A DNA stretch of 58,683 nt, the filler included, from Sphacelaria rigidula (Eukaryota): NCBI GenBank assembly GCA_964200075.2. It is 10 parts of 10 records of this genome, joined end to end, with 100 filler letters (N's around TTAATTAATTAA, not from the genome) between each part and the next. Parts side by side here need not be neighbours in the genome. Positions count along the whole stretch, not along the records: positions 41,150 to 46,927 come from CAXNAA020024535.1; positions 47,028 to 52,805 come from CAXNAA020024536.1; 8 more parts are not named here. The stretch is one strand, 5' to 3'. The notes beneath the pieces are model-generated. The model was not told the DNA's origin. It did not search any database and saw only the letters and a list, made by a program, of their open reading frames with translations. Both the position numbers and the translations under genes were made by a program. How positions within the stretch are numbered: the first letter of the stretch is position 1; each line of letters begins with the position of its first letter. Of this stretch, positions 5,233-57,872 are shown piece after piece.

Positions 5233-5455
5233 ACGGTAGAGGTGCACTTTTTGGGCCAACACTTGTCTGAGGCTGCATACTAAGGCCAAGATATTTGTGA
5301 TTGAGAGGTTTCTACACCGAAGAGCCTCAGCAAAAAAAAAAAAAGCAAGGGTCTACAAAATAAACTCGTTAAGTCGNNNNNNNNNNAAGGCAAAAAAATT
5401 TTTGATGGAAAGGTTTCAACACCAAAAAACCAAAAAAAAAAAAAAAAAAAGCAAG

Positions 5456-5688
5456 GGTCTACACGTTACACTCGTTAAGTTGTTTCACGTCGTGTCGCGT
5501 ATCACGTCAAACGTTAAGCCAGACTAGTACTACGGTAGGGGACGGGGACCATGTGGGGAGCCCCTTTACAAAGTCAAGTCAAATCAGGGCTCCTCACGAG
5601 CGTGTCCCCCCACCGTAGTACTAGCCTGGCTTGACTTTTGACGATTTCTGACGTGAAACGTGAAGGTAACGAGTGTAACGTGTAGACC
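5456..5688. mobile_element. MITE with long TIRs (GGTCTACACGTTACACTCGTTA ... TAACGAGTGTAACGTGTAGACC)
   Basis: Perfect 22-bp terminal inverted repeat plus an inner inverted pair ctagtactacggt/accgtagtactag. Confidence 0.75.
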
Positions 5689-5779
5689 GTTTACGGTTAG
5701 GACAAATCATCACGACTCAAGATCACCAAATTCACGATTTCTTCGGCCTGATTGCCCGAAAGAGGGGAAAAATTTGATC

Positions 5780-5879
5780 NNNNNNNNNNNNNNNNNNNNN
5801 NNNNNNNNNNNNNNNNNNNNNNNTTAATTAATTAANNNNNNNNNNNNNNNNNNNNNNNNNNNNNNNNNNNNNNNNNNNN
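5780..5879. other. Artificial contig linker (N44 + TTAATTAATTAA + N44); same linker at 11659-11758, 17538-17637, 23416-23515, 29294-29393, 35172-35271, 41050-41149, 46928-47027, 52806-52905
   Basis: Nine 100-bp spacers with stops in all six frames separate contigs of 5779/5778 bp in descending length order. Confidence 0.98.
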
Positions 5880-6268
5880 GGAAAGACACAACCCGCCATC
5901 CTAAGTTGAGGATATGCTGATACACGAGCATCACAATGACCCACTGCGGTGGCAATGTACCACTCGCTGTCTGCTTGTCTGCTTGCAGTTCCATTTCTCT
6001 GCTGCTGTTCTATCCATCCCGGCGTATACTACAGGTGTGACTCGAGTCTGTGAGCCAATCAAAAGCAGTTTTCACTACGTAAGTCACTACGAAGGTCGCA
6101 TTCCATTGGCGCTCATTTCAGCCGATTCCTCACTGAAGGGTCTCTGATTGGTTAAATTTCACATGTCACTGCAAAACTTCATCCCCATGTATCGGCGTTG
6201 TGCAGAATATTCCTCGATATGTCGGCGGCATATTTCTGGTCCCTATCCCACGATATATTCCTCAGTTC

Positions 6269-8415
6269 TTATGCACTTCCAATGTCCATCCTGACGATAG
6301 ACCCAGCCACAATGATCACGGCCCGTTTCTCCTCCTCCGAACCGGCAGCTATGACCTGTTGGAGTGCGGGTTCAACAGGCTGACTACTCTCGATCTGGGC
6401 GGTGAGACAGGAGACGCAACGCTCCAGTTCTCGTACCCTGGCACGCATATTGCGAAGTTCAACGTAGGCCGCGATGCCTACCTCGGGCGCAACCACGAAA
6501 GGAACAAGATAGAAGAACTTGCGCTGTCCATCGCATGCAGCCCTCTCGACCCCGCTTATCTTCTCAAGCTTGGCGCCGACTGCGCCGTCCGCCGCCACCG
6601 CCACCGCATCGAAAATTCCCAGCGCTTGCTCCCCGGTGCGCTTGGTGTTTGCTATGGTTCTGGTTTCGCTCATCCAGGATTGAACATTCTCCAGCCCCAC
6701 TACGCGCTCCGCCTCAACGTCCGCAATTACTTTATGGTGTGCTTCTGCAATAGAGTCCGGCTCGGGAGGGATAGGGGGGGGCGTACTCATTTGTTCCTTG
6801 CCTTAGTCGTTCGACCATTGACCAACGGGAGGGATGGGGGGGGAAGTTAACTCAACAGTCGTGGGTGTGCAGCAAACCGGAGGGAGGGACTTTGTCTTAC
6901 GTCTATCACTCGCAATCCTCAGTCGCTCGAGTAAGCGCAACAAAGAATTATTCCAGTTGCATAAGCAATCTGAACTCGATTGATAGTTTTGCACAAGCGC
7001 AGCCGGGCGTATGCCATCACCACCCGCACACGACTCCAGGAATAGCCGAGCCTCTGGAATCTGTGCCGCGCCAAGATGACGCCAGGCATTGCCTTCGCCG
7101 GGTCCTGGTCGATGGTAGGCGAAGCACAGTCGCGATACCGGATCGTGCATCCGACCGCAAGAGGAGCATGTGTTGCATGCGTCGTCGACGACGGGGAACT
7201 GGATGCCACACACATCGCGACAAACCCCCTTATGTATTTTACCCCCCTCATTCTACTCACCGCGGTAGACCCTGCCGGTGCAGAATACACCCTGCAGCTA
7301 TCACGATTGCCAAGGGGACCTTGAGAGCTACTGCATCGCGTCGACGTCCTCCCTTTTTCACCGCGCGCGCGATATTCACCACGATCAGTGTCGGGGGGTG
7401 GTGTCCGGCGGTCGGGATGCCTCATGAGCTCGCTGGCAATCCCGTTCGTAGGCGCCGGCGCTACTTGCTCTTGTTCCGCAGTCGCTAAAGATGAACTGCC
7501 GACACCTTCAACTCGACACCGGTCGACCACAGGGGCGGTAACATATGTAGCCTTCTCCTTTTTCTGCTTCGATTTTGACGGCGACGCGCGTCCAGGAGTT
7601 GGTTGCGAGGTGCATGGTCAGCTTGATCGTGGAAAACTCCCCCGGTGACCCCCGAGTAGGACCCCGTCTTGCGTTGTATGGGGATGCGGATATCGGCGCT
7701 TCCTCTGGAAAGTGTATTGCCAGCAGCTGAACTTCCTTCACCCCGTTTCTGTGCTGCAACACAGCCTTTTGGCTGTTCATGCCATGCTTCCCATGCGCTG
7801 TCAACCTCCGGGTGATTCGTCGCGGTCCTCTTCCATCTCGATGTACGTGTTAGAGCATGCGGGGGTGTACCTTCGCCGGAGTTGGGGGGGGTACGTCTTT
7901 TCTTGGCCTTGATTGACGGAGTTGAAGTCTGCATCTTAACGACTCTACCACCGGCAGCTCCCCCGCTCTTGCGGGGAGTGTTACCCACTTCCTTGAGAGG
8001 CACTGTCGGCGGATTCCATGGTGCCACCTCCCGTATATTGTTTTCCGACGCCGAGGTAGTGGAGATTTTACAAGTCGCGCCTTCCCCGCCCGATCGAAAT
8101 TTGAAGTTGTTACGCTCTGCGCTCGGAAGGTCGTTGCATCTCTCCAACCCCTGTTTTCGTACAGATGCGCCATCAGTGGACGCCATGGACGCATCCGACG
8201 CACTGAAGAGTACAGTCGCCGCATCTTTTCCGTACAAAGGGGAGCTCAACCACTTTTGCGGTTTGACCTCTTCGCCAGCGTGATCCTCGGCGATTTCCCT
8301 CAGATTTTCCACCGGCGCTGTACGTTCGGCGTGCATGATGGAGATCTGCTTTCAACCGCGGATGTGGCATGTGTCGGACGGGATGGCGGCGACAGTGGTG
8401 CAGGCACTTCACCAC
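6269..8415 (-). pseudogene. Probable decayed coding region of unknown family: low-complexity N-part, Cys/His cluster (CNTCSSCGRMHDPVSRLC), coiled-coil-like C-part
   Basis: Chain of overlapping minus-strand ORFs (7485-8336, 6919-7530, 6803-7213, 6269-6790) apparently linked by frameshifts; candidate acceptor ccggacAG at 8416; interrupted by a family-B repeat near 6770-6845. Confidence 0.3.
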
Positions 8416-9274
8416 CTGTCCGGGAGAGACGGAAAACGATGAATGGGCACAACGTGTCCGCCATGTGGTCTAGTTTTTTAGATTGTGAAGGATCGGGGGT
8501 TCGTGTGGAAGGACCATATCCCGAAATGTAGGCATCCTCAATTTCGTTTAAAAGTCACACTCATCAGCGGGAACAAGGGGAAAGCAGTCGACTGCGCTGG
8601 ATCTTCAGCATTCCTACTTCGCGCGGTATTAGTGCATGAGGGATGTTGTGATGCTCATACCTCGAGACCGATTGCGGTGCCGTATCTCACGTTCGGTCTG
8701 CTACGGCCGGCGTCTCAGAAGTGCTCCAGACGTTGCACTCCAACTGTGAGTCTTGGTGTTCTTCTACATGTACGGTTAGCGAATGTGCCGGGGAGTGGAT
8801 GCGAGTAGGTTTGTTCGTCAATACTTTTGATCACAGGTGTCTTCAATCGTGCGGTTATCATGCTGTGCCGTCCAACGATACCGGGGTTTTGGATGCCGCT
8901 CCATCTAATCTCATGGTCACTGCATGCGATCGTCGTACTGTTGTATCTTTCAACTTCACAACTCGAAATCTATGTCGACGTTCGCTCGAACTATCTCGCT
9001 CCACGTAGGGGGGTCGTTGAAACCCGGGTGCATGTTCCCAATATGCGATCGTTGCGAAAAAAAAGGCACCAGGTGGGATTAATACCTTCCTTCATGGAGT
9101 ACATAACCCGCAGAATTACACATAACCCACGGCCGCATGTTGCGCACCGTGAATCCTGATGGCTTCGCCATGACCGTCGTATACACACTACAGTAGGACT
9201 GTACAGTATACAGTATTGTTTCTTCTTGCAGTTGGCGCTGTTCATACCCGAGCACTGCACTTCACAGACTGTAC

Positions 9275-9375
9275 AACACTCTGTACTGCACTGCACTGCA
9301 CTGCACTGCACGAAGTTGTGCAGTTCTGTGCTACACTAGGATGCACGGGACTGTGCTGCACGGGCCTGTACTGTA
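9275..9375. repeat. (CTGCA)n pentanucleotide microsatellite, degenerate at the edges
   Basis: ctgca repeated directly. Confidence 0.8.
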
Positions 9376-10495
9376 CTGGGGTGAACAGCTTGTAGAGCAG
9401 GAAGGGCGCTTCCCACTGCACCCATGTGCTGGTGCGGAGTAAAACTTAAACTTTTTCAAACTTCAGCCACGTCGTTGATTTTGCGGCACTGATGGATTTC
9501 AGTGAATCCTTTTGAAACAGAATTTTTACTTTGTCTGCATAGTGAACAATCCCTCTGTATCTCTACTAGCGGTGTAGGCCGAGCGCCGCGCTCTCCCATA
9601 ACACCGGAGGTCAGGTTGCACGAGGGGGGGGTGGTGGTCACCCTGGGCCGCACAAATTCTGCTCTAACTCGTTGTATACAGCACTGTTGCCGGTGCAACC
9701 TGCGGCACGAACTTTCTGTCTATATATTCACATACCTACTCGTCCACACGTGAGCTCCTTCCGCCTGGGCGATGCTATCTGGGCCGCTGCTGCATGCACA
9801 GCTGATGCGGACCGTCCTTGTGAAATCAGGATATTTGCCATCATCCACCGTTTTTTACCGTTCTTGGGGAGGCGCAACACTGCACACCAGTCGCAGAGTC
9901 AGCCAGACTGTTGCCAGGGTGCATAATCCTCCTCAACACTGGGGAGACCCCAAAACCCCTCGATGATGAAGTGCTCACGCGCAGGTGATCCCTGGGTGGT
10001 CACGGTGTTACTCAATCGTGTGTACTGGTTCAAAAAGGGGGAAAGTAGGATTTCGCCTCAAAACCAACCTGTCACTTCCCGAACCAAAAAATGCGATCTT
10101 GGTTCGGAGATTGAATATAAAAGTTTGGTTCTACCGCTGCCACCCTTAGTTCTCACGCTGCACATTGAGTTTATCCGTCATCTCCCGTGCCTCCAGTCAG
10201 TTCTGGCACGGATGAGGCTGGGCGGTGCTTAGCAGTAAGATAGGTATACCTGTAACGGACTGCACAACTATATCGAAGATAAAGTGATGAGGTGAAAGGC
10301 GTGGAGGGTGCATACGCGGTCTCCTCTTGACCCAACTCAGAAACAGGTACTACTCGTATTTTACTGCAAAGGTACAACGGCATTTGGGATTTGGGTACAA
10401 CAGCCAGTATAATTCAGATTATACTGTAATTGTTCCGCAGCTGTACTTGTACTGACTCTACTGTTGGAGACTGCTAGGGACTTCACATCGAACAG

Positions 10496-26614: not shown

Positions 26615-26950
26615 GAAATTGAGGATACAGCTTTTCATTGATGATGATAACCCGGAGGGTTGAAATCTTCGTTTGCACACCAAATATGCGAAATGTGGTT
26701 CCATTCCTTCACCTACTGGTAGCTATTGACAAGTACTACAGGTCTCAAAAATTGGATTTCGATAACCGAAATGTTGGGGTCCTCGGTGAAAAACTAATTT
26801 CGGGGAATTTCGGCGATCCGATCGGATCATCTCAATTCACAGAAGGTTTTACTCATCTAGGACAACAAAATTTCGGGTATCGAAATCCGAATTTGTAGGA
26901 GGTGTAGCATTTATCAATGGCTACCAGTAGGTGAAGGAATGGAGTAACCA
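26615..26950. mobile_element. Partial copy of the foldback MITE family seen at 36084-36505
   Basis: Inverted arms ttcacctactggtagc/gctaccagtaggtgaa and ggatttcgata/tatcgaaatcc. Confidence 0.7.
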
Positions 26951-27494
26951 TATTTCTAAGATGTAAGTCGTGTAAATATCAGCCTGATGGACGAACCAGT
27001 AAATAGAACATCGGTATAGCAATCGCGGAATTCATGCATACAGTATTGGCTGGAACAAGCGAGACGATGATGTTGTTGTGTTTATCTTCACAATAAAATC
27101 GTTCCGATGTCTGCGCAGAACTCCGTGCTGGGTATTTGATGCGGATGCCTTCCGTGGTCACAGGCTAAATACCCGAAATACGGTACAAGGGGTAAAAAGC
27201 AACAAAATCAGACTCGGGAAAATCCACAAGGACGCAATACAAAATAAAAAGAAGAGGACCAAGACGGGTAAAAAATACTAGAGCGATCTCTCCTGCTTTC
27301 CCTGTTTCCAAGCGCCCGGGGATGAACAGTTGAAGGGAACATAGCTAGGCCTTCATCAAAGGATAAAGGATGGCCAGCTTCTTGTTTGGAGAGCATTATC
27401 ATGTTCCCAGCGAGTTAGGTGATCCAGTACCCGTATTGATCTTTCGAAATACAAGAGACTTTTTGTATCCTTCATTGAATGAAGACACCAGAGG

Positions 27495-35851: not shown

Positions 35852-37778
35852 CTGTGATTTTTGACGCCCCTCTTCATTCGCCTTGCGTTCAGAAGGATGA
35901 GGGTGACTCGAGCGCGATACAAACGGAGCAGACGTATCGCTTCCGCCCTCTGTCGCTCCAGTAGCATCTTAGTGTACATGCACGGGGTGGGGTAGACGGT
36001 GAGGAGGGCAAGAGAACAATGTGGGACACAGCAACGATGGAGAGCCACCTTACTTTGCAAGTTCGTTTTGTGTCTGCAAGAAACACAGGATTACAAATTG
36101 GGGATGGATCTTTGATTGGTGATGAAACCCCGGAGAATTAAAATCTTCTTATCCATACCAAATTCTCGAAGTATGCCTACATTTCTTCACTCGCTGGAAG
36201 CTATTGACAACTACTACACGCGATACAAATTTGGATTTCGGTAATCGAAATGTCGGGGTCTTAGGTGAAATTTGTTTCGGGAGATTTAGGTGATCCAATC
36301 GGACGCCAAATTGGTTTTTCACCTAGGACCCCAACATTTCGGTTATCGAAATCCAAATTTATATGGCGTGTAGCAGTTGTCAATAGCTACCAGCAAGTGA
36401 AGAAAGGGAAGCATACTCTAAGGATTTGGTATGGACACGAAGATTTTAATTCTACGGGTTCTCATCCCCAATAAACAATCCATCCCCAATTTGTAAAATC
36501 CCGTGTTGAGACTTCTCGCGTGCAAGCTAATCTCTCGCAGCGAGACCAGATCACCGTCGAACAGGAGGGCAGACTTGAAAACATCCCTCGTTAGCACAGT
36601 TTGAAATGAACCCGGGCACAGCCGCCACATCGCGATCCCTCAAGCGGGAGGCAACATTGCAAGTCTCCCTTATCCATCTTCCGAACTGGTTCGGGAACGA
36701 GGACGCGCGAAACGGTCGCGTGTGATTCCGATCACGTGCAAAAGTCTCGACTCTATTCGCTCAATGATCCAACATACTTTCGGAAAAAAAAACAATATCA
36801 TTTTTGTTGCCGTGTGGGACAGCAAGGGAATGAACGCCTGATAACCTTCAAGTACTCCCATTCTCTATAAGCATCCACCGAAAATTTGGTTTCGTCAAGC
36901 ACTTTCGATGTTGATATAGTGGTGCTTACCTTCATGGAGGTCCAGGCCTTCGTTGTGTAGGTATACATTGGGTATTCGAGCCATCACTATAAAAATAGAT
37001 TATGTGGATGTTAACAGCCATATCACGTGGGACCATGGCAAATAGCACAGTATCACAGTATTTCCTGAGGTAGCTATTATCAAGCTCTCGCTAACCGAAA
37101 GTCATGTACACGTACATCCACAAGACTGCAGCCGAAAAATGGGCACATTATTTCAATCCTAGGTACCATTGCTGCAGCCGTTGTGTGGGTCGGCGTACGG
37201 ACTCCTTGAGTAGAAACAGTAGAGAAGCGAGGGGATGCAATGAGTTCTTCTCATCGTGAAAAATCAATGCGACTATTTTAGTCACCGTCTGAAACTGCAG
37301 TAAAAATACTTCGAGGGTAACCTGCAAGTAAAATCTAACCGGTTTCACGGCGGATTCTTACTCTCCTGTCTATTTATCGAGTCATCTATTCCGCATCTTG
37401 TGTGCATTCTGCTGGTCAGCGGTAGTATGCCCCTCGAAGCAAACAAGGACATTCTTCTCTTTTAAAGTTTTGATTCCCATGGGCGCTGAAAAGGCACTAG
37501 CCGTGTCTACATCCTCGCCGCAAACCCGTCCCAACCCTCGATGGAGCTCGTGCAAATTTCGTTGAGGGGAAGTTGATGAACTTGACTAACTATATACCAA
37601 CAACGGGACTGTTGCTTACCTCTGCTCGCTCCCCTTTGTTCCGCGAAAGCAACGTTGCTTCCTGCTTCCTCTGCTGCAACTGTATTTTCAGGCGAATCCT
37701 GCGTTGCATTACGATCTCGCTCTCGTCCTGGAATTCGTGTTCGCTGTTCGCCGCCGGAAAACGCGTGATAGAGCTCAC
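35852..37778 (-). CDS. Candidate exons of an unidentified gene (about 37620-37778, 37167-37321, 35852-35967)
   Basis: Donor GAG|gtaagc at 37619 is phase-compatible with acceptor ttgcAG at 37322; the third block has ctaAG and AG|gcgagt borders; helical-looking peptides, no family recognised. Confidence 0.35.
36084..36505. mobile_element. Foldback MITE of about 420 bp with CAC...GTG ends
   Basis: ttacaaattggggatggat / atccatccccaatttgtaa ends; the two halves are imperfect inverted repeats almost to the centre. Confidence 0.85.
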
Positions 37779-42930: not shown

Positions 42931-45157
42931 TTACGACAACAGAATAACTGCAGGCAAGCAAGGCAAAAAGAGACAACAGCACGACAGCACATTATGAAGG
43001 AAAATAATCCGGGATTCTAGGAAAGCACTTGTAAAGAGAGAACATAACAGAATAGCATCGAAGGAACACAACACAATAGATAATTACATGCTCGGATGAG
43101 AGCGAATAATGAAAGCAAGCTGAAGATCAACCCTTAGACAGCGGTGCGGGTAGTCCATCTGAATCACGTATATTGTTTTCAAGTGAATATTGATGTCGAT
43201 GCAGCAGGTGACCTACCCTCGCGGTCGAAGGCTTAACAGGGAAGAATAAAAGCAACTACGGTAGGAATGCAAGAATATTTTCTGAGGTTAGAATTGTTAG
43301 GAGCCCTTTATCTCATCCAAAAGGCGACTTATGAAAATATGTGAGAGTACGCCCGGATTACTATTCCAAAATTCCGAATGAATTTGCAAACGGGGATGTC
43401 CTGATCCATATTCTTGTGCATCTAGAGTCGTCAAGAGACCCTGAACTAAATAAGGTTTCGCGCAAAAAGTGCACCCCTACCGAAGCATTGCTCGTCAGGA
43501 CTTTTCCACTTCTTCCGCGGGGACGCGCGGGCAGCATTTCAACAAATTGATCACATCTTGAGTGCGTATCGGTTCAGCTCATTTATATATTCAGCGCACA
43601 CCGAAATGATGAAGCGAGCGGTTCAGTTGTGTGGGTATTCTCACATTTTCCCGTTCGCGTTCCCGCCGACGTGAACCACCCCCGATGTTTTTGACGTGTG
43701 GTTCGATATACGACATCACCCGACGGGAAGCAAAGTGGATCTGCCGAGGTATTAGCTCACCTCAACACATTGCACCGCCAACGAAAAACACAAAGCGTGT
43801 TCTGCCCGGGTTTTTTACTGTACTCAGTGTTGTGTTGTGCAAATCATCACCGTGCGTGCCCTCGACTCACAGGGCCCGTCCCCTCACGCAGACCACCCGT
43901 TCTATGTCATCGTCCCCTCACGCCAGACAACCGCTCTATTTCATTGGTGACGAAGGCATACACGGTGTGAGAGCCGCGTTGTGATCATACAGACTTGAAC
44001 TGAAATTGGGGGGCGCCGGGGACCACATGAACTGACCACATGAAACCACATGAACTCCTTCCCCCGCGCCTCCAACATTTGTTCCGGGTCTATTTGATCA
44101 CAACGCGGCACTTACACCGTATGTCCCTTCATTCTCGATGAAATACGTGGGGGGACGGGCCCTGTGAGCCATGGATACGCACGTTCAAGGTTTGCGCAGG
44201 AAATCGAATGAGTTCATGTCTCGAGTGCAGCACTCGAGTACTCAAAGTCATAGAGTTTGCTCTCTGATCAAGAATTTCTACGGGCGTTCATCGTCAGCCT
44301 GCTTCACCCATGTGTTTTGTTGCCGCCGTAACCCATTGATATCGTCGGCGCACATCGAAGTGTCCGCGCGCCGGACCCCTAGCATTGGCGTTCGCCCGGA
44401 CGCCTGGACAGTCATCCCCCGACGCGGGCGCGGCGGGATCTGCACACTAATTTCAGCATATCATTACGTAGACGCCTCCTTACGATAATCGCTGCGCTCT
44501 CGTGCGTCCTAAAGATCTTATACATACGTATTATACATTATGTGTGATATATGTACATGTATCATTTCACATTTTTCACCACTTGTGCCGAGTTTTCTCT
44601 GGCAGCAAGGCATTTCATCCCGCGCTTTCTTTTTCACCCCACGAAGAAGGCGCAGCGGTATATTACCGTTTAGGTTTGGGTGTCATCTGATGCCTATGGC
44701 GCGTGTTCTGGCCGCCGAAAGTCGCCCAAACTGGCTTTTTTTCGCGGGATGTCGATCCCGAACCACGGAAGCCTTTTCAAGATCGTGGAAAACTTCAAAC
44801 AGGAACCCAAACCACAAAAGCCTGCTGAAGATCATCGTTCGAACAGGATAAATTTAGGCGAGGTATTTTTACACCGTGGCTTTCTTGGCGTTTTCGTTGA
44901 TGCAGCGAATGTCACGAGAACATGGGAGCAAAACAGTTAAAAACAGTCAAACGTTGCCTTGGCCGTAGTCAGCAGCATATACAAGTCGAATGATCTGAGA
45001 CCCCTTATTATTTAGTTTTGACGTGAAGCCTCTGATCCCTCAAATCTGCGTAATATGGGTCCCAATCACGCGAACCCAACAGTCGTTATCGTTCTATCGA
45101 GAACAAGACCCACGGGTCCTGTCCATAGGAAGCTTCTAACCATGAGGAAAGTTCCTC

Positions 45158-45383: not shown

Positions 45384-47066
45384 TCACAGTATGTGAGCTT
45401 GACTGTACACTACACCACACCACAAGCTGTAAACAGGTGCACTAGAGACATAGTTCTGTATGCAGGGCGACACCATCTGTGGATGCATTAGCAATATGAA
45501 CTGCTACGAGCTGGGCCAGCTGATCGTGATTTTTGAACAGAAAGTGGAGATGTCATTGGCAATTTGAAGAGCTAGGCGCCGAAACTTTGACACGACATTT
45601 TGACTATCAACTCGTCCAGCCCCATTGGAGATGTAGAGGAAAAACAAATACAAACAGGAAGTTAGAGCGAGTTGAAGTTTCAGCAAAAGCAGGGAAAATG
45701 CTATAACGTCTTTTCAAATTGATAAAAACGATAACAACGCTCCAACACGTACGGGCACTCGCGTGAACGACATCCTGGTAAAGTTTCGGCCAAAAGTACC
45801 TCAAATTGGGCGCGGCACCGCACAGCAACAGCCTCTCTTAACCATATATTTTTTACTTGATTCACCCCCGGGAGGCCCGTACCAACCCTCCCGAAGGGGA
45901 CCTTGTATTATATATGTACATGTATCATTTCACATTTTCACCACTTCTGCCGACTTTTCTCTGGCGGCAATGTATCTTATCACGCGCTTTTTTTGCAGTG
46001 CACGAAGAAGGCGCAGCGGTACATTACCTTCCAGGTTTGGGTGTCATCTGATACCTGTGGCGCGTGTTATGATCATCGAAAGTCGTCCACACTGGCTCTT
46101 TCTCGCGGGGTGTCGATCCCGAACCACAAAAGCTCTCCAAGATGATGGAAAACTTCAAGCAGGAGCCTGAACAACAAAAACCTGTTTATGGCAGGGTATC
46201 TCTTTGCGTTCTCGTTGATTTGGGAGCACGAAGACAGCGGTCATGCAGCGAATGTCACGAAAACATGAGAGCAAAGCAGTTGAAAACAATTGAACATCGC
46301 CTTCGCCTTAGTCAGCGGCAAAAGCAAGACCGTGCTATGAGCCGTTGGCGAGGTGAACAAGGCACACACGTGGGCACACGTCCCGACTGTGGGTCAGCTG
46401 TGAAAGACCAGAGCAGTGGGGTGACGAAATTCCTGTGATCATGCAACCCGTAACAGAGAGTTCCGTCTGTGATGAAGATGACTTTACCACTTGGTAGTTG
46501 ACAGATATTTCTGGGAAATATATGGTTTGTGCAGGTGCTGATGCATTTCGAATAACATAAACCCCAACGCTAACCCCAACCCTAATAGCACCGACCAAGG
46601 TATTCCGAGAACTCTCGGGCAACGGGGATGCAGAGTGTTCCTCAAGTAAAGCGTGCGTTGCGAGAGCTCATATCGTCGCCTTTCGAGAGCTCAAATCGAC
46701 GTCTTTGAGCCGATTTTGGACCAAAACACTTTCTGGACGAGCTAGGCCTACTGCTCACCACTGCTCACCTGCCCCAAATAATGAATTTTCTAAGAACTTT
46801 CTTCAGTCTGAAATGACGTAAGATCGAGTATCAGCTATTGTTTACGTACTATTCTTGGGTTGACCATGTTCATGTGAACAGGTACACTGGGTGAACATGC
46901 ACACGTACGGATATAATTATGCGGATGNNNNNNNNNNNNNNNNNNNNNNNNNNNNNNNNNNNNNNNNNNNNTTAATTAATTAANNNNNNNNNNNNNNNNN
47001 NNNNNNNNNNNNNNNNNNNNNNNNNNNCGCGGACATATCTTGAGGTGGTGACAGGTAGGGGAACAG

Positions 47067-48803
47067 GTGAGGCGGCGGCGGCGCCGAGGAGGGCGCCACG
47101 CGCTGGTGTCGGCGCCGACGGGGGGGGGTCCGGACGACTCCACCTTCGTCTCTCGCGGCGTCATCAGAGAGCGGAAGCGTGGATACAGCGGCGGCAGCAG
47201 AACCATATTCACCACGTGCGGGGGGGGGCACCGTGCAATTGGTGACTTGCAACCCCATCTGTTGTGGTGGCGTGATGGCAAGGGGCCTGACCAAAGCATC
47301 CATAGCGCAGTTGGACCCGGTATAGGTGAGGGGGAGATGTCCGCAGTGCACTTCATCATTCACTCGAGGACGTTATTTCAGAAGCATTTGAAGAAATGGC
47401 TCGTGACTTCCACTGATACTGATCAGTGGATACATGTCCTGTTGGCCATGTCCTGCGGACATATCGAGCCACAAGGCTCCAACGCGGTGCAGGTAACTGT
47501 CAGACGCATTGTGAACGCAGGCCCTCGGTACATACTGATGAACAGGGTGTACAGCGCCATCGTGACTCTGAGGGACGGGAGCGATAGTGCGTGGCCTCCC
47601 GACGGACCGTATGATTGGCTGACGCATCCTGTAAAGGTGGCGCTCTTCGTTTTCACCTGTCTATTGGCTGGCTGCAACTTCCTACCGCATGTATCCGGGA
47701 TTCCCTTCCCAAAGATGTGGGAATTCGTTCTGAACGCACTGAGAACGCCGAATCTGTTCATGAAAGCGATAGTGGTGATCGACGAGGGTAAGGCGAGGGT
47801 GGAGGTGGACGAGGGGGTCAAGCTACTGGCCACGATTGTTTTCTTCAGGTACGAAAAGGCATTTGCGCAAGTCGCCGCGGACCCTGAACATCTCTTCACC
47901 ACGACAGAGCAGAATCTGGAGTCTTTCGTGAACAAGATTCATCTATGCATCACCACAGTACATGGGCACATGCCTTCCCGGTGCTGCCCGGACTTGGACG
48001 CCTGCCAGAGGCACGTGGATAAGGCCGACGCAGTATTGGAAAACTGGGGGGGGGGCTTTGGGATGAGCATGCCCACAGTGAACTTCAACGGGCGCGGATG
48101 GGGCGTTGAACCAGAAAAAATAATTCACCACAAGGATGGGGTAAAGGCGGCGAGTAGAGGGGCGGTGGAGCTTACACGGGACAACAAAGTTGTACACTTG
48201 TCAAGCCACACGTATGTCGATACATCCGGGATTGTGCGAACCCTGAGATGCGCGTGCAAACTGGCAAGGGCGGCGCAAAGACATCACCGGTGCCGAGGTT
48301 GCAGATGTTTGGGGAATTGTACGTTGAGCTGCGGTTGCCAGGGCGGCTGCTTTTTGCCGCTATCCCCTGATCCAGCGACCGACACTACTGCTACAGGTGA
48401 TTCCGCCGGAGGATATGTCGATACGTCCCGCCGACGTCGTAAGGGTAGGGGCGGATCCACGGCGAACCGTGGAAGGGGCGGGTCAGCGGCGTTGCGTGGC
48501 GGGGGGCAGGCGAATGGAGCGAGGAAGGCCCCGGGGGCAGGTGTTGATAGTAGTCGTGATGAGGACTGCTGCCGACGAGATGGCGAAAGGATGGCGAGTG
48601 TAGCGGGAGGGAAATCGGATCCGGAACCAGATCCTACCAGTCGCAGTTGTTGCGACGGCGGTCTAGATGGTCCGCCAGAGGGCGGATCGAAGCATTCAGC
48701 CGGTATCTGGCTTGGAGATTCGGACTCCGAGTGTAGCGACTCAGAGGAAGACGATTCGGCATCGGAAGCGGGCAAGGACCACGACGACGAATTCGCCTTT
48801 TGA
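47067..48803 (+). CDS. C-terminal part of an AcademX-like transposon protein: PIN/XPG-XRN-type nuclease, Cys cluster and acidic tail; 5' end truncated by the contig edge
   Basis: GIGEGE, LVTSTDTD, RYILMN, LLAGCNFLP, PDLDACQRHVDKADAVLENW, GRGW, then CAC...CRGCRCLGNCTLSCGCQGGC; 578 aa without introns. Confidence 0.7.
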   Translation: MRRRRRRGGRHALVSAPTGGGPDDSTFVSRGVIRERKRGYSGGSRTIFTTCGGGHRAIGDLQPHLLWWRDGKGPDQSIHSAVGPGIGEGEMSAVHFIIHSRTLFQKHLKKWLVTSTDTDQWIHVLLAMSCGHIEPQGSNAVQVTVRRIVNAGPRYILMNRVYSAIVTLRDGSDSAWPPDGPYDWLTHPVKVALFVFTCLLAGCNFLPHVSGIPFPKMWEFVLNALRTPNLFMKAIVVIDEGKARVEVDEGVKLLATIVFFRYEKAFAQVAADPEHLFTTTEQNLESFVNKIHLCITTVHGHMPSRCCPDLDACQRHVDKADAVLENWGGGFGMSMPTVNFNGRGWGVEPEKIIHHKDGVKAASRGAVELTRDNKVVHLSSHTYVDTSGIVRTLRCACKLARAAQRHHRCRGCRCLGNCTLSCGCQGGCFLPLSPDPATDTTATGDSAGGYVDTSRRRRKGRGGSTANRGRGGSAALRGGGQANGARKAPGAGVDSSRDEDCCRRDGERMASVAGGKSDPEPDPTSRSCCDGGLDGPPEGGSKHSAGIWLGDSDSECSDSEEDDSASEAGKDHDDEFAF

Positions 48804-51800
48804 TTGCACCCGTAGCGAAAGTCGTAGACATGTTTCTTGCAAATGAGTTGCGTAGGTATATAAGTAACCGTGGGAGTTATCTTCGGCAGACGGAAACTAT
48901 AACCCGTGCGTACGGTTGATGGGGACGTTGTAGAGTGCCTGATGCAGTGCGCCCCTGTAGGTAGACGTCTACGGCGGGTCGTCCGGCGACACCCTTGGGC
49001 GAATCGCCGGTTGCATCTCAAGATAATGCGTGATATTAGTGGAATGAACGACTAATAAAGCGAAAATGATGATCAAGACGTGGTGTTGCAGAAAACCTTA
49101 TGGAATAGTGTGCAACACGACCACCACACGCGCGTGGACTCCAGTCGTGAGGCGGCCTTCATAGCGCTCTGCACGGCGGGCGAACCGCCACGAATATTCG
49201 GTGTGATAACAACCAATCGTGAAAATTGAGGACAACGGTTTTCATTGACGATGATAAGTCGGTTTATTATAATCTTCATATGTGTGGACTATTTTCCCAA
49301 AATATGCCTGCACTCCTTCGCGTACCGATAGCTATCACCAATTTCTGCATGCCATACAAGATTGAAATCCGATGACCAAATTTCGGGGGTCCGATGTGTA
49401 TGTGGTCTGTGGTCATGATGGGGGGGGGCGGGAAGGAGATGAAGATGGAACACGTAATAATCCATCCTCCATGTCGCAGAACAGAGGTTCCAAGTGCTGC
49501 ACGCTGGAGGAATATCAGATGATGTTTTCTGTCCCTAACCCTTCATTATTGCCCACCAAACTTTGATCCCCATCACACCGCACAGTCGATGTGACTACGT
49601 GTGCTTCGAAGCAAACCCTGAAGCAGTTTCCGTGGCACCTCTCTTTCGTTTCCGACAGCTTACAGTATCACTGACGGCACAAGGAACCGGCAGACCGTGA
49701 GTGTTTCTTTTCATTCATATTTTTCATGTTTCCCCTTGTTTTTCTCTGATCACGAGCTGGAGTGTTGCAGTCAACTACGTAATGCGCGATCATCATCTTT
49801 TTGTGTTGCTCGTGCTTGTGTTTGTGTTTGTGTATGTGTTCGTTTGTCGTTATTTTGTTGTTGTTCTTGTTGTTGCTTGGTGGTGGTGATGGTGGTGGTT
49901 GTGGTGGCGGTGGTGTTGTTTTTTGTTGATATCGTTGCCCCTTAATGTGAGATAATCAATCCATCAGTCGATCAAGTGTCGTTTACACCTTGCGCGGCGA
50001 TCCCGTAAGCAAGCTTCATGCGCCGCCCCAGCGACAATGACAAGCACATGTCTGGAATGTTTTTCCCACTGGCGGGCAATGTTAATTGTTGCATGTATGC
50101 TTGCGGGAGAAGATATTCCCCACGCTACAAACCAAGTGGACGCGGCGCAACTTCTACCTGCTCAATGTGGATATCACATGTGACCCGATGGGTTTTCCCG
50201 CCGCACCTCACATGTTATAACACCCGTAACCGAGATGATAATATCTCGACGCACACGGCAGCTATCGACACAAATCGAATTGCTCTGTGTAGATAGAACG
50301 CGTACCTACCAGTCCTCCACTTCTTAGCGGCCAACACCCTTGTCTAAAAATTGGAAGTCGGGGTGAAGTGAAGGTTATCTACTAAATATATTGCACTGTT
50401 TCGACACTCAATTGAAGTCTGCCAGGACTTGAACGACGGCTAGTGTGAAGGACGGGCATGTTGGAAAATGACGTTTTTGCTTGTACAAATTGTTACAACT
50501 TTTTTTAGGTGTATCCATCGCTGGTTTGTGAGCTGTACTGGGTGGAATTGAGTCAGGCTGCGATCAGAAGGTAGCTTTAGACATATACTACAGCTGTGTG
50601 TTGCTTTAATTGCTATATGACCTTCTGTACATTTACTAGACTCCGTCACGTCTTCATTTTGGGGGTGGTGGTAGAAAACGTGACACTAACCCCCGGCGTA
50701 ATACTGCTTGGTTTACTGTTTTGCTTTCTTGCACACGATGACCACCAGCAAGGGGGGCGTTTTTTGTCGGTTTGTGGACAAAACACTGATTTCTATTGAA
50801 ACAGCGGAAAATTGGGGTTTCCCCCAGATTGCAGGAAACTAATTGTTCATGTCAGAACTCCCACGCACCGTACTGTAATGAGTATTATCGACAACATCAG
50901 TAACCCTAACTCTATCGCCTGTCTTCTGTTCGGCCCGCAAGTGAAGGGGCAGTGTCAGCACCGTCATGCGATCATCCAGCGATAGGCCAATTCGACATTG
51001 TTGGACCGCGTCGCGTTAAAATTGATACTGGGTTTTTTATTGAGAGCTTGGTGATCACCTTCGTGAACATTTCCGTCATTGACACCACTACCACCCAGCC
51101 TTGGTTATTCTCTTTTGGGGATGGTAAACACCGTGACACTAACGTGCTGCTGTTGTGCCGCGCGGCTGGAGCTGTGGCGGTTACACGTGTATCGACCGGC
51201 ACACATGGAATATGACATCAACTATTGATGTAGCAAGAATCAAGTGTGCGCATTGAGTCAGCCCTGTCGAACAAGTTGCCTGCCGGCCACGAAGGTGTTT
51301 GGTGCCCGCTATCAACACGCACGTCCTGTCTCTCCTCAAACCGTTTCTCCTTGGTAGAAGGTACGTATGACGCACTCTGTTGGATGCCAGTTTTTGGGAG
51401 ATGTGCACTGTGTGGTATTGTCGCAAATCTTTCCGTTTCGGCTTTGGAGCTGTACCCAGTAGGGCATTTGTAAGTGCCAGGATGCTCTTTGGATGCGGAG
51501 CTTCACACCACCTGCTCGCAAGTTGGGAGCTATCTACCCTGGCTGAGTTTGTCGTGCATGTTATGCTATAATGATATAGCGACTGCAGCTTGACACGAAA
51601 TCTTTGTGCCATGTTGTTGTGGATATAAGCCTTGAACATGCACGACACCTCGTCATGCAGTGACAGCACCTTACAGTACAGGAGCGCTGCGGTGTACTGT
51701 ACCGTACCCTGCGCGCAGTACTACACTACAACAGGTGTCTGCCCATTTTTTTGTAACGGAAATCACGAGCGGGTGCATGCGATTAAGGTCGACCTCCAAA

Positions 51801-52905
51801 ATTCTACTGCCAACCTGAATCCGACCGTGATGACTGATTGCTGCACTTCTGTATCATTCTGTTCTTCAAGAGTTATATGGAATGCATGTTGTAGTCAAAC
51901 TTTCGACTATGAAAATTTCGACTGAGGGCGATTTTTCAGATTTTTCGGTCATCAGGCCAACCACACGGCATTATCATATACTGTACTGATGTAGCGTCCT
52001 GCGCTGTATTACCCTAGGGTACCAAGGTACGACACTGTACTGTACTCGAGGAATCGTTCACCTCCTGCCTGCTCTTCGGCTTCATGCACGAGTGTGCAGT
52101 ACAACCGTCATGCTGAAAATGACCGTCTGTGCACAGAACCGTTTCAAATCTGTGATTTTGTACTGTCTGTGCAACGTCTGTGTCATAAGACGATCCCCCC
52201 GATTTTGAGTCCACGAATTTGAGTCCCTCCGATTTTTTCAAAACCGGGGTCCTAAAATAAAAAATAATCGAGATTCGTTGTAGTAAGGTCAACTCTTATG
52301 GGAGCGTTTAGAATTTTATTATGCAATAATTTTGAACGACTTTTTTTTTTTCTTTGCCGTACTTGTGTATTTTGTGCGCGTTCACCATGATGACAGAGAA
52401 AGAAGAAATCCTCTGAAATTGTTGCAACATAAAATATCAAACGCTCCCATTAGAGTTGGCCTAATAGCGGGTCTGATGGGAGCCGTTCAAAATTCCTGTT
52501 TGAAGCTGCTTCCTGGGCCCTTCTCCGTCGATTTAAGCCCGAAAAGAGGGGTAAGCGGATGTGGACGCCTTGGGATGACTTGTTCTACTCGTTGAGACCG
52601 TTCGTTCTAGGGCAACCTCGCATTTCCCGCTGGCCGCACAAGTGTTTTTGGCCAAAGCAGGCCAAGTATGAATTTTGCAGTAAAAAACGGCCAGGTGATC
52701 AAAATTCCCCCCTGTTTTTTTTTTTTTACCCCTCGACCATTTTTTGTTGAAAATCCGCGTATGGCCAAAAGTGAAGGAGCGGCCAGCGGGGAATGCAAAG
52801 TTGCCNNNNNNNNNNNNNNNNNNNNNNNNNNNNNNNNNNNNNNNNNNNNTTAATTAATTAANNNNNNNNNNNNNNNNNNNNNNNNNNNNNNNNNNNNNNN
52901 NNNNN

Positions 52906-53600
52906 GACCAAGTCGCCGAATATGCAGACGACGCTGTTACAGCCATCGCAGCAGTAGAAGATGCACCAGACGCGGATCCTGCCTGGCCGAGGGGTTGCGA
53001 ACTATTTGCTTCACCACTCCCCACCGAAGTCCGACCCGCTACGGTCGAACCACAAGATCCAGAGTCACCACCTGATGACGTAGTGGAAGAAACAGCAGCG
53101 GGGTAACCACCATCCGCCGGCGATTGCTCGGTACCGCGGCCGCCGCCCCCGCGTCCCTGGTTGGCACGGCCCCGTCCACCGTGACGACCGCCGCGAGATC
53201 CTGATGAATCTCGCGCAATTCCTGGAGCAGCGCCTTGAGCGCGAGGCTTGAGGCAATCCTTGATCAGATGTCCGGTGTCATCGCGATTGTAACACGCGCG
53301 AGTGGACGACGCTCGCGAAGACGGCTGCTGTTGCACTTTGCGGCGCGCACTTCCTACACTTACCGCAGAATCGCGCCGGCCATGTGCCTCAATAAATTTC
53401 CACTGGTCGGCGGCATCAATTGTTTTGGGTTCTCTTTCCAGTCGTCAACGTGAGTACACTTCTAACATACGCCTTGAATTCCGGGGGCGAAATCCCGTCT
53501 ACCAAAGCTGTGGAAACCGACTCGATCGGGCCTGGCAACTGGAGTCTGTCCTCCGACAGTACATGGCTTGCGCCGTGAGGTTTTCTGCGAAAAACGTTTC
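52906..53600 (-). mobile_element. Decayed LTR-retrotransposon gag fragment with a degenerate CCHC zinc knuckle
   Basis: ALVDGISPPEFKAYVRSVL, then after a frameshift RACYNRDDTGHLIKDC (second Cys replaced by Arg) and an RGG-rich tract. Confidence 0.7.
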
Positions 53601-53631
53601 CATCCATGGATTGACCATCGTCGCTCCGTCT

Positions 53632-54180
53632 TACTGTACTGCACGGTCTTGTTTCGATGATGAATAGTATAGAAACCCCCGAGACCTTCAAATCCATGGT
53701 TGCGGACATACTGTACTGCACGGTCTTGTTTCGATGATGGGTAGTGTAATGCGTGAGAGGACCGCGGGCTTAGAGGACCGCATCTGAATTTGAATATCCG
53801 TATGGTTGGGGTTAGGGTTAGGGTTAGTGTCGGGGTTAGGGTCAGGGGCGTGGTACCTGCAGGGACTGGCCCGATTGGTGTAAAAAGATGTCGATCCTGG
53901 GGTGTTTTGGATTACGCCGCGGTCCTCAAGTGCAGTCCTCTCACGCATCACAGATAGTATAGAAACCCCCGAGACTTTCAAATCCATGGTTGCGGACATA
54001 CTGTACTGCACGGTCTTGTTTCGATGATGGGTAGTATAACCCCCCCCGAGACCTTCAAATCCATGATTGCGGACATACTGTACTGCACGGTCTTGTTTCG
54101 ATGATGAATAGTATAGAAACCCCCGAAGCCTTCAAACCCATGGTTGGGGACTCACTGAACTATACGGCCTCGTGTCGAAA
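53632..54180. repeat. 77-bp tandem repeat (units start at 53632, 53709, 53999, 54076, plus a diverged partial)
   Basis: tactgtactgcacggtcttgtttcgatgatg...ccatggttgcggaca; unit 2 is interrupted by an insertion. Confidence 0.92.
53745..53952. mobile_element. 208-bp TGT...ACA MITE (Ginger2/TDD-like ends) carrying TTAGGG-like repeats
   Basis: TIR TGT.ATGCGTGAGAGGAC; 5-bp TSD GGTAG/GATAG; the host unit is lengthened by exactly 213 = 208 + 5 bp. Confidence 0.8.
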
Positions 54181-55605: not shown

Positions 55606-56442
55606 CACGGGATTTTACAAATTGGGAATGAAAAGACGGAGGATTAAAATCTTCGCATCCACAGCAAATATTCGAGGTATGCTTCCATTTCTTCACTCAA
55701 CAGTGGATTTCGAAAATGGGGTTGAAAAAAACATCGAGTTTCAACTCAAAAGCCGTACTTTCCCTGACCTAATATCATAAAAAATTACTTTCATACGGAC
55801 GACCTCATCCTTCCCGACCTCCCAAAAACCATTTCGGGGGGTTGCCAGCCTTCCGTTCCCCCAAAGGGTATCTGCGAAAGCACGATTTTTGGGCCAAAAA
55901 ACGTCCATTTTCCACCCCGAAATGGAGGCAAAAGTGTGCTCTCCCACATACCTTTCGGGGAAACGGAAGCCTAGGGACCCCCCGAAATAGTTTTTGGAAG
56001 GTCGGTCGGGAAGGATGAGGTCGTCCGTATGAAGGTCATTTCTTATGAAATCAGGTCAGGGAAAGCACGGCCTTTGAGTTGAACATCATGTTTTTTTCGA
56101 CCCCATTTTCGAAAATCTACTGTTACTTGCGGGTAGCCATCGACAACTACTACACGCCATACAAGTTTGGATTTCGATAACCGAAATGTCGGGGTCCTAG
56201 GTGAGGAACAGTTATGGGGATTCTAGGTGTCAGATCGAACGCCATAATTGGTTTTCCACCTAGGACCCCGACATTTTGGTCATCGAAATCCAAATTTGTA
56301 TGGGGTGTGGTACGTGTCGATAGCTACCAGCAAGTAAAGAAATAGAAGGATACTTCGAAGAGTTGGTGTGGATACGAAGATTTGAATTCTCCGGGTTTTC
56401 ATCCCCAAAAAAAGATCCATCCCCAATTTGTAAAATTCCGTG
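55606..56442. mobile_element. Foldback MITE (36084-36505 family) with a nested insertion
   Basis: CACGGGATTTTACAAATTGGG ... CCCAATTTGTAAAATTCCGTG. Confidence 0.85.
55699..56124. mobile_element. Nested 426-bp foldback MITE
   Basis: Arms of about 190 bp (e.g. catacggacgacctcatccttcccgacc / ggtcgggaaggatgaggtcgtccgtatg); flanks ACTC/ACTT suggest a 4-bp TSD. Confidence 0.85.
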
Positions 56443-57872
56443 TTCGTTCAGAGAATCATGCAAACTCCACACAACTCATTCTCAGCTACCACCGCAACCC
56501 TGCAGCATGAAGCACGAGTTGAGCTCAGGGATAAATACACGGCAGTAGTTGGGTATGTCTTGTGCAGTCTTTGTTGGCGGAGACCGAATCATCTTCCTTC
56601 ACGGAAGGGATCAGCGACGGAATTGCGTGGCAGGGCGGACAACCGACTTGCGTACATGCTCATGGTCAGTGCACGCAGTACGAAGCTACACGCTATCCCG
56701 ATCCTTTTCAAATTTCCACGTCGCCGCATTGTAAGGAGAGAGAATAGAGAGCAGTAATCCTGCGCTGTCCGTACTGCACGTTGCTAGCTTCTCTTTCACA
56801 TCCTACTCCTGAACGAAACACGCACGCAGACACACAGGCACACTACATGCAAACAGTACAGACAGTATATGACTGTAATGTAGGCGAGCGACCAAACACC
56901 GCTTCACGAATTTCACTGCCTTTTTTCGATCGAAAGTTCGAAAATTCTCTTGGATACAGCTCGAGAAAAATGAGCAAATCCGTTCAAATCAATTCTACCG
57001 CCCTCTTGTTTCGACAAAAAAAAAAGTGCGAAGACACGCCCTTACCGTAAAAGTACACGAGCGAGGGAGAAACCGGTAACCCTGGTTGCCAGCGTACGCA
57101 GTGGGTGGCGTGTCGTTATTGCCAACGGACACGAACCCTTCTGAAGGGTGGGCGGAGGCACATCACGAAAGCATGTTACGTCAGGTATTTCTCAGCTGGA
57201 GGAGTCATGGTCGCGGTGTGTACTTCCAGTAGATGAAGCGGCACTTTCATGAACACGCCACTGAAATGGGAGGAAGTAAGGAGAACGGTGCCCAGGAGAT
57301 CGAGCACGAGCAAACGCCATGGTGTTCGCTGGCGTGGGGTACTGTGATCTCACGTGGAACATCTATGCGGGGTGAAGAGCTTTCGCTGAGGCGTCGTCAT
57401 CCAAACAGTCGACTGGACTACAATAATGGTTCCGTTTGATATCTTTCCTCGTTTGGAGCAGCATACCTTCGAGAAAGCGGTATTGCGGAGGCACATGGCG
57501 ATATATATGTCGATTCTCAGTGGATGGAAGGAAACGATGGGTGATAGTTGAGCATCCGTAGCTTCCCATTAATTCAATATCCGGGATTAACAGAGGACGA
57601 GAATCTGGTGGGAGAACATTCATCTTTTGCCCGGGATGTATAGCGGAAAGGGAAGTAAACTCCCCATCCCGACGCCCCGATCTCTGTCCCGTCCCGTCCT
57701 GTTTTCAGGGGCGTACTTCCCCTCCTGTCCGGCCATTCCTTCATGAAACGGGAACGTTTCCCGTCCCCTTCCCACGTGAACAATTCTTATATATTCGACA
57801 CACTCGCCATGCTCGTGATGTTGATGCTTATATCCAAACCATCTCCCTCCCTCCCCGCCGCTATCGCGCCCA

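What the first reader, a model, noticed from the sequence alone, without database searches (positions are those of the whole stretch)
47028..48803. AcademX-like PIN-nuclease/Cys-cluster protein in a probable stramenopile, with XRN-like motifs
Seen: ordered motifs GEGE, STDTD, LAGCNFLP, PxxxAxxxHxxKAxxxxxxW, GW and a 9-Cys cluster; a likely G-run frameshift near 47120 extends the frame to the contig edge. Known: AcademX transposons encode a transposase, an XPG-like nuclease and a Cys8 finger, and to my recollection are reported from animals and red algae. GEGE and GxxFLP look closer to XRN 5'-3' exonucleases than to the EEAD/GCD pattern I recall for animal copies, and the conserved Asp is Asn here. 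Inference: a divergent, possibly undescribed Academ lineage or a domesticated derivative. This is the best novelty candidate in the window.
Basis: partly seen in the sequence, partly recalled or inferred. Interest (0 to 1): 0.7.

Follow-up and report, generated by a model that had tools for sequence, protein, structure and literature searches.

The report
Brown-algal Academ transposon with XRN-like nuclease
This is a broken piece of an abundant jumping gene in a seaweed genome, and full-length relatives join the cut-and-paste enzyme to a predicted nuclease shaped like the RNA-decay enzyme XRN, which likely trims DNA ends during jumping and extends this transposon group to brown algae.

Summary
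The 583-aa open frame and all its motifs are real. It is the 3' third (47028-50706) of a multi-copy DNA transposon of about 12.5 kb, not a domesticated gene. The genome gives 137 matches from 117 scored candidates. Copies end in a 12-bp inverted repeat (CAGTGTTACGCC) with 4-5-bp target duplications; a sister family has 3-4 bp. Longer copies carry a DUF6589-type DDE transposase upstream, joined in frame to the nuclease through a GT-AG intron. That intron is skipped in probable RNA runs and not in DNA-like runs. A model of a complete homologue matches XRN1/2 first by Foldseek, and ties with EXO1 by VIA Z-score. The Asn is decay of this copy: Asp in 38 of 51 copies. There are two G-run frameshifts, not one. 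Relatives occur in four brown-algal genera; I found no paper on Academ in brown algae, but Kojima 2020 and Repbase were not seen. The scan noted Academ elements before in animals and fungi, but no look-alike of this sequence. Verdict: a new brown-algal variant of AcademX. Whether the XRN-likeness is special to this lineage is untested.

The parts
47028..50706 (+). 3' fragment (3.7 kb) of a roughly 12.5-kb Academ-type DNA transposon, cut at the contig start
   Evidence: About 85-94% DNA identity to the closest copies, running to a sharp shared end at 50706; contig starts at 47028
47030..47228 (+). Low-complexity linker inside the nuclease, broken in this copy by two G-run indels (G9 at 47120-47128 and G9 at 47220-47228)
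   Evidence: DNA alignment with 10 same-subfamily copies
47229..48248 (+). C-terminal half of the FEN-like/XRN-like PIN nuclease (GEGE 47325-47336, DTD 47415-47423, GCNFLP with Asn codon 47676-47678, helix 47988-48047, GRGW 48090-48101)
   Evidence: fold of complete homologue P0003
48249..48350 (+). Nine-Cys CXC (tesmin/TSO1-like) cluster, likely Zn-binding and DNA-binding
   Evidence: 8 invariant and 1 near-invariant Cys in 13 rows; ESM Atlas neighbours named TCR/CXC
48351..48803 (+). Gly/Ser/Asp-rich tail, probably disordered, ending at the stop codon
   Evidence: Sequence; homologue tail pLDDT below 50
48804..50694 (+). Non-coding 3' subterminal region of the element
   Evidence: 44 matches from 40 scored of 102 candidates, 76-93% identity apart from the window's own copy
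50695..50706 (+). Right terminal inverted repeat (GGCGTAATACTG; one change from the family's GGCGTAACACTG)
6206..9882 (-). 5' part (left TIR at 9871-9882 and start of the transposase region) of a different, sister-subfamily copy on another contig
   Evidence: About 79-81% identity to L133/L127/L132; its flank does not match the 50706 flank

Best explanation
The window holds a frameshifted 3' fragment of a multi-copy Academ-type DNA transposon of brown algae, whose full-length copies are predicted to encode one spliced protein joining a DDE transposase, an XRN/EXO1-fold 5'-nuclease and a CXC finger, with the nuclease likely trimming DNA ends during transposition. Shown: copy number, 12-bp TIRs, 4-5-bp TSDs, domain order, the intron skipped in probable RNA contigs, purifying selection between subfamilies, and copy-specific decay here. 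Predicted: the nuclease fold and its full acidic active site with an XRN-style 5'-phosphate pocket. Inferred: the transposase excises the element and inserts it at staggered target nicks. The tethered nuclease then removes a few bases from a 5'-phosphorylated end or flap at the junction, giving short duplications that vary by one base (3/4 or 4/5 bp) instead of the 9-10 bp of helicase-bearing AcademH. About 0.9 for the identity and about 0.55 for the DNA-trimming role.
For: Copies: 137 matches from 117 scored of 488 candidates. TIR 186 hits vs 18 control; left-end motif 77 vs 1; right-end motif 100 vs 0. TSD in 13 two-ended elements: 5 exact 4-bp, 1 exact 5-bp, 5 with one mismatch, 2 none; mispaired control 0 of 206 exact. 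Sister family, 16 elements: 8 exact 4-bp, 3 exact 3-bp, 5 none; control 2 of 420 exact 4/5-bp. Transposase upstream of the nuclease in the same orientation in many loci; PF20231 DUF6589 in 6 of 9 rows, best E 1.6e-7; DNxD/GDEE/GxxH/LDExQE motifs; Atlas features 0.95 and TM 0.74-0.76 to animal and fungal clusters. Phase-1 G|GT..AG|G intron at the spot where L023/L137 read straight through. The 281-nt GT..AG skip is seen in one contig of run X9, with matching loose ends in X6-X8; it is absent from the listed joints of X1-X3, which cover the intron. Model pLDDT 70, pTM 0.73; all 18 Foldseek rows shown among ranks 1-23 are XRN1/XRN2 (best E 9.6e-7), EXO1 from rank 26. dN/dS 0.18 between subfamilies vs 0.61 within. 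PMC10045372 (passage): AcademX makes 3-4-bp and AcademH 9-10-bp TSDs, a difference that 'seems related' to nuclease vs helicase.
Against: No sequence-level link to named Academ or XRN proteins: no nuclease Pfam hit, no significant PDB sequence hit (yeast Xrn1 only at E 1.6), and the long-protein search found nothing. The window's family has 4-5-bp TSDs, not 3-4, and 7 of 29 two-ended elements show none. No single intact, full-length copy was seen. The splice evidence is one study whose runs are only guessed to be RNA, with one bridging contig of 27 bases on its short side. My transposase model failed (pLDDT 43). By VIA, EXO1 (Z 14.9, rmsd 4.0, 272 aligned) ties XRN2 (Z 14.4, rmsd 4.0, 346 aligned). 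No activity data.
Confidence: 0.8

Rival explanations
1. Same transposon, but the nuclease is a true XRN-type 5'-3' exoribonuclease that acts on RNA, for example clearing R-loops or silencing-related RNAs at the element, rather than trimming DNA.
For: XRN ranks first by Foldseek and aligns about 350 residues against about 270 for EXO1/FEN1. K-x3-Q-x2-R holds in 29 of 30 true N-terminal motifs, and D-x5-H in 6 of 6 rows of A2 that have this region. [quoted passage not shown]
Against: The position equal to Xrn1 R101 is Arg in only 7 of 30 (Thr in 17), and R101 matters more than R100 for RNA decay (PMC12972898). The domain is fused to a transposase and a CXC finger. The Xrn1 crystal 2Y35 itself holds a DNA substrate (PMC10590902). 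EXO1 ties by Z.
Confidence: 0.15
2. An ordinary AcademX family: all AcademX nucleases share this fold, and brown-algal members are already in Repbase or in the paper I could not read, so only the copy is new.
For: Domain order, TIRs and short TSDs fit AcademX. The Atlas places the nuclease-CXC part beside arthropod and mollusc clusters at 0.94. From recall, not from any call, animal copies share the C-terminal P..A...H..R....W..GW helix that drives the XRN-length alignment.
Against: The curated Ectocarpus catalogue has no Academ in its main text or readable supplements. A profile search of 1.84 billion proteins gave 362 hits; all 4 named members seen among the 10 clusters looked up were brown algae. 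GEGE and GxDFLP differ from the recalled animal motifs.
Confidence: 0.3
3. A domesticated host gene, or a nuclease from an inserted giant virus.
For: The viral structure library also gives giant-virus XRNs as best matches (E 3.6e-6); an EsV-1-7 motif sits in the family's transposase.
Against: Over 100 dispersed decaying copies with TIRs and TSDs; this copy is frameshifted with Asn for Asp. No confirmed relative in the IMG/VR scan (0 of 67 pattern hits). Viral matches are 7-17% identical.
Confidence: 0.03

Closest known systems
AcademX lineage of the Academ superfamily (Kapitonov and Jurka 2010; Kojima 2020; neither seen, known through the PMC10045372 passage and recall)
   Same: DDE transposase plus a nuclease and a Cys cluster in one element; TIRs; short TSDs that vary by one base (3-4 bp in the sister family).
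   Different: Brown-algal host; 4-5-bp TSDs in the window's family; about 12.5 kb against a mean of 5.6 kb for bivalve Academ (PMC10294476); intron between the domains; GEGE and GxDFLP motifs; only 12-17 bp of TIR; EsV-1-7 motif inserted in the transposase.
AcademH (helicase-bearing Academ)
   Same: DUF6589-type transposase; Atlas neighbours include fungal and cnidarian DUF6589 clusters. That DUF6589 marks Academ comes from recall and scan notes.
   Different: Nuclease instead of helicase; 0 exact 9-10-bp TSDs.
XRN1/XRN2 5'-3' exoribonucleases (PDB 9e70, 5fir, 2y35, 3pie)
   Same: Predicted fold over about 350 residues including the C-terminal helical part; split N and C halves; GEGE, DxD and GxDFLP; K..Q..R pocket and early His by motif spacing.
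   Different: 10-15% identity, rmsd 4-5 A; second pocket Arg mostly absent; fused to a transposase and CXC; no sequence-level match.
EXO1/FEN1/XPG structure-specific nucleases (PDB 5v09, 3q8k, 6tur)
   Same: FEN-like PIN core; VIA Z 14.9 (EXO1), 13.6 (FEN1), 12.0 (XPG); DNA substrates fit a role in transposition.
   Different: Align only about 230-275 residues, ending at model residue 484-498; XPG, the family's usual label, is the weakest of the three.

Membership tests
Academ superfamily | DDE transposase of the Academ type | tested here: met
   DUF6589 in 6 of 9 rows; DNxD, GDEE, GxxH and LDExQE motifs; Atlas TM 0.74-0.76. The DUF6589-Academ link is recalled.
Academ superfamily | Transposase groups with Repbase Academ entries in a tree | not testable with these tools
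   No Repbase or animal Academ sequence could be retrieved
Academ superfamily | Terminal inverted repeats and multi-copy dispersal | tested here: met
AcademX | XPG/FEN-like nuclease in the transposase protein | tested here: met
   Fold search; in-frame or spliced fusion
AcademX | C-terminal Cys cluster (recalled as Cys8) | tested here: met
   8 invariant Cys and 1 near-invariant
AcademX | 3- or 4-bp TSD (PMC10045372) | tested here: inconclusive
   Sister family: 8 exact 4-bp and 3 exact 3-bp of 16 (no control computed for 3 bp). Window's family: 4 bp in 8 and 5 bp in 3 of 13, counting one mismatch
AcademX | N-terminal PHD finger (recalled) | tested here: inconclusive
   Cys-rich N-terminal region present, only sub-threshold zinc-ribbon hits at E 0.1-0.85
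AcademH | 9-10-bp TSD and a helicase | tested here: not met
   0 exact or one-mismatch 9-10-bp TSDs; the partner domain is a nuclease
XRN family (PF03159) | Sequence match to XRN_N or solved XRNs | tested here: not met
   No Pfam hit at E up to 1 for 13 of 13 rows; Xrn1 only at E 1.6
XRN family (PF03159) | Basic pocket (Lys, Gln, Arg, Arg) and His/Trp stack | tested here: inconclusive
   K, Q and first R match by spacing in 29 of 30, second R in 7 of 30; His present by spacing; no residue-level superposition; Q97 and D35 numbering recalled
XRN family (PF03159) | Processive 5'-3' decay of monophosphorylated RNA | not testable with these tools
   Needs a biochemical assay
KDZ, EnSpm, Tc1/mariner of brown algae | 8-bp, 2-bp or TA target duplication (PMC12477816 supplement 1) | tested here: not met
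   Sagan-1 and TcMar-1 share CAGTG termini but duplicate TA

The most novel reading that the evidence does not exclude
Brown algae carry an undescribed, still transcribed Academ lineage whose transposase is fused to a nuclease descended from the XRN exoribonucleases. This would be an RNA-decay enzyme re-tooled to shape transposon insertion sites (or to clear RNA there), and it would mean the 'XPG' label of AcademX is wrong.
Probability: 0.3. Interest if true: 0.7.

Novelty: new variant of a known kind. Interest (0 to 1): 0.5.

Why it matters
It adds a transposon superfamily missing from the curated Ectocarpus catalogue, with relatives in four brown-algal genera, and extends Academ to stramenopiles as far as my searches show. 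Why some transposases carry a second nuclease, and how that sets TSD length, is open. A family with complete nuclease domains, a spliced fusion transcript and two TSD regimes (3/4 and 4/5 bp) makes this testable. If the XRN ancestry holds, it is an unusual reuse of an RNA-decay enzyme by a DNA transposon. The window's own copy is a dead fragment.

Tried and rejected
Pfam scans of the nuclease gave no relevant family. PDB sequence searches gave only chance-level hits. IMG/VR scan: 0 of 67 pattern hits confirmed. Metagenome scan: 0 of 202 confirmed. The search for long fused proteins (1244-3550 aa) found none among 5356 candidates, which is weak evidence. The AlphaFold model of the transposase P0179 had pLDDT 43 and was not searched. 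The missing 5' half of this copy was not found; the 5' half at 6206-9882 has a non-matching flank. Unequal-ends lead from earlier scan notes: the 6-mer AGACGC sits at modal position 44 of left ends and 54 of right ends, but 0.44 shared 6-mers are expected by chance, no 7-mer is shared, and the sister family shares no common 6-mer, so it is inconclusive. No listed sequencing run is on record as RNA; four are guessed RNA. Domestication, viral origin, AcademH, KDZ, EnSpm and Tc1 were considered and rejected as above. Kojima 2020 was not held.

Full report
Observation. The open frame 47052-48803 (+, 583 aa, stop to stop) and the six motifs are there. The window is a string of short contigs joined by N spacers; 47028 is base 1 of G000:C24536, so nothing upstream in the window belongs to this gene. 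Alignment with 10 copies of the same subfamily shows two G-run indels: G9 at 47120-47128 (7 bases in 7 of 10 copies, 6 in 3) and G9 at 47220-47228 (10 bases in 4 of 10; 9, 11 or 13 in the rest). In-frame copies read through both runs. The first ~57 residues of the ORF are therefore out of frame, and this copy is broken. The Asn of GCNFLP is AAC after TGC. Among 51 distinct genomic contexts from my fetched loci, 38 have Asp, 5 Glu, 2 Asn and 6 other (some misaligned at frameshifts). Among 161 stored proteins, 56 had the motif: 51 Asp, 3 Asn (one is the window's own), 2 Cys.

It is a transposon. The nuclease part has 137 matches from 117 scored of 488 candidates in the 244-Mb genome, most with stops or frameshifts. 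Homology with close copies runs through 1.9 kb of non-coding DNA and stops sharply at 50706. The terminal 12-mer occurs 186 times against 18 for the control; left-end and right-end motifs occur 77 and 100 times against 1 and 0. One search listed 15 pairings of ends. I dropped one false left end and one outer duplicate right end, leaving 13 elements: 5 exact 4-bp TSDs, 1 exact 5-bp, 3 four-base and 2 five-base with one mismatch, 2 none. Mispaired flanks gave 0 of 206 exact and 7.8% within one mismatch. A sister family with the same first 12 bases (137 hits vs 0), mostly 1.2-kb non-autonomous elements, gave 21 pairings. I dropped 5 with a false or non-matching end, leaving 8 exact 4-bp, 3 exact 3-bp and 5 without; the control gave 2 of 420 exact 4/5-bp, with no 3-bp control. 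Its link to coding copies (L219, L040) is inferred from position. From overlapping copies L133, L127 and the window, a full element is about 12.5 kb. The two-ended copies of the window's family that I saw are internal deletions of 3.7-10.5 kb.

The gene. Longer copies carry, upstream and in the same orientation, a transposase and then the N-terminal half of the nuclease. The transposase shows DNxD, GDEE, GxxH and LDExQE motifs and matches DUF6589 in 6 of 9 rows. An Ectocarpus homologue (P0179) lies at 0.95 by features and TM 0.74-0.76 from mollusc, fungal and cnidarian clusters, and more weakly near ISKra4/ISL3/IS256. In L130, L132, L128, L021 and L139 the two frames are separated by G|GT...AG|G at the spot where L023 and L137 read straight through. 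Laid on L127, one contig of run X9 skips the 281-nt intron (5716-5996), and X6-X8 show the matching loose ends. X9's depth drops from about 650-1700 to 27 in the intron, while X1-X3 cover it evenly and list no such joint. These are four runs of one study, only guessed to be RNA, and contig depth is a poor measure. Nuclease dN/dS is 0.18 between subfamilies (42 pairs), 0.61 within the window's subfamily (15 pairs) and 0.36 within the second (21 pairs). That is selection while transposing and decay afterwards.

The nuclease. No Pfam family and no significant PDB sequence hit was found. A model of the complete homologue P0003 (13-row alignment; pLDDT 70, pTM 0.73) matched XRN1/XRN2 in all 18 Foldseek rows shown among ranks 1-23 (best E 9.6e-7), EXO1 from rank 26 and FEN1 from rank 38. 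VIA tied EXO1 (Z 14.9, rmsd 4.0, 272 aligned) with XRN2 (Z 14.4, rmsd 4.0, 346 aligned, reaching residue 527); XPG scored 12.0. Viral matches were giant-virus XRNs at low identity. Complete homologues keep the acidic set D, D, E-x-E, D-x-D, D. By spacing they also have a His six residues after the first Asp (6 of 6 rows with that region), and K-x3-Q-x2-R in 29 of 30 true motifs after dropping 4 spurious regex matches; the next position is Arg in only 7. Xrn1 uses K93 (PMC5499597), R100/R101 and H41 (PMC12972898) and a basic pocket of Arg, Lys, Gln, Arg (PMC10590902); the Q97 and D35 numbering is recalled. It works like a 5'-nuclease of the FEN/XRN group but is not shown to be an XRN member. 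The Atlas puts the nuclease-CXC part beside arthropod and mollusc clusters at 0.94; I read these as animal AcademX, an inference.

Range. Homologues: 11 in the word-index search and 362 in the profile search, of which 150 were listed. Named members are from Ascophyllum, Ectocarpus sp. CCAP 1310/34 and Pylaiella (10 clusters looked up) and Sphacelaria rigidula. The last match ORFs of G000 closely (99%), so the window is most likely from that alga or a near relative.

Mechanism. Most likely the single protein excises the element at its TIRs and inserts it at staggered nicks, and the tethered nuclease trims a 5' end or flap, giving short duplications that vary by one base. This extends the remark in PMC10045372 that TSD length seems related to nuclease vs helicase; it is inferred, not shown. 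The rival is action on RNA.

Literature. Ten searches (eight on Academ/DUF6589) listed no paper on Academ in brown algae or on an XRN-like Academ nuclease. PMC12477816: I saw passages, part of section 5 and all of supplement 1, and searched five supplements, with no Academ. Its FASTA supplements could not be read, and its 51 unknown DNA and 94 unknown families could hide this element. I saw passages only of PMC10045372, PMC5751038, 10.1101/2021.09.26.461848, PMC4455052, PMC10799480, PMC9587614, PMC10294476, PMC5499597, PMC12972898 and PMC10590902. Kojima 2020 and Repbase were not seen, so the absence from print is not secure; the animal motifs, the PHD and Cys8 traits, and the DUF6589-Academ link are recalled. 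Scan notes hold 144 Academ findings in other genomes and no look-alike of this protein.

Verdict. Observation confirmed with two corrections. A dead fragment of a real, abundant and probably still transcribed AcademX-like lineage of brown algae: a new variant of a known kind, interest 0.5.

Noticed in passing
L130:3673-6123, L128:4336-6300, L132:1124-2932: The window's family has a long insertion inside the transposase that carries an EsV-1-7 cysteine motif (PF19114, 3 of 9 rows, best E 2.5e-4). PMC12477816 reports the same domain on an Ectocarpus Tc1/mariner transposase.
   Followed up: no
element ends, e.g. L024:1339-1400 and window 50640-50706: AGACGC lies at modal position 44 of left ends and 54 of right ends, one helical turn apart, as earlier scan notes describe for other Academ elements; not above chance here.
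   Followed up: partly
L172, L180, L181, L188, L203, L204, L210-L212, L214-L216: An abundant 1.2-kb non-autonomous family shares the 12-bp terminus and makes 3-4-bp TSDs.
   Followed up: partly
window 6206-9882 (-): 5' part of a sister-subfamily copy, with left TIR and a short internal deletion just inside it.
   Followed up: partly
window 26602-26956, 36071-36507, 55621-55697, 56125-56450: A 330-440-bp palindromic repeat, MITE-like, that also sits inside L106 and L023.
   Followed up: no
window 52854-53444 (-): Open frame with a CCHC zinc-knuckle-like motif, probably a retrotransposon gag fragment.
   Followed up: no
window 44540-44960 and 45905-46330: Two diverged direct copies of a stretch of about 400 bp (seen by eye).
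   Followed up: no
L127:3917-8445; window 46560-46590 and 53460-54130: A deletion derivative in three runs joins 3917 to 8445 through telomere-like CCCTAA filler; CCCTAA-like runs also occur inside window contigs.
   Followed up: no
whole window: The window is about ten contigs of roughly 5.8 kb joined by N44-TTAATTAATTAA-N44 spacers, so neighbourhood across spacers is artificial.
   Followed up: yes
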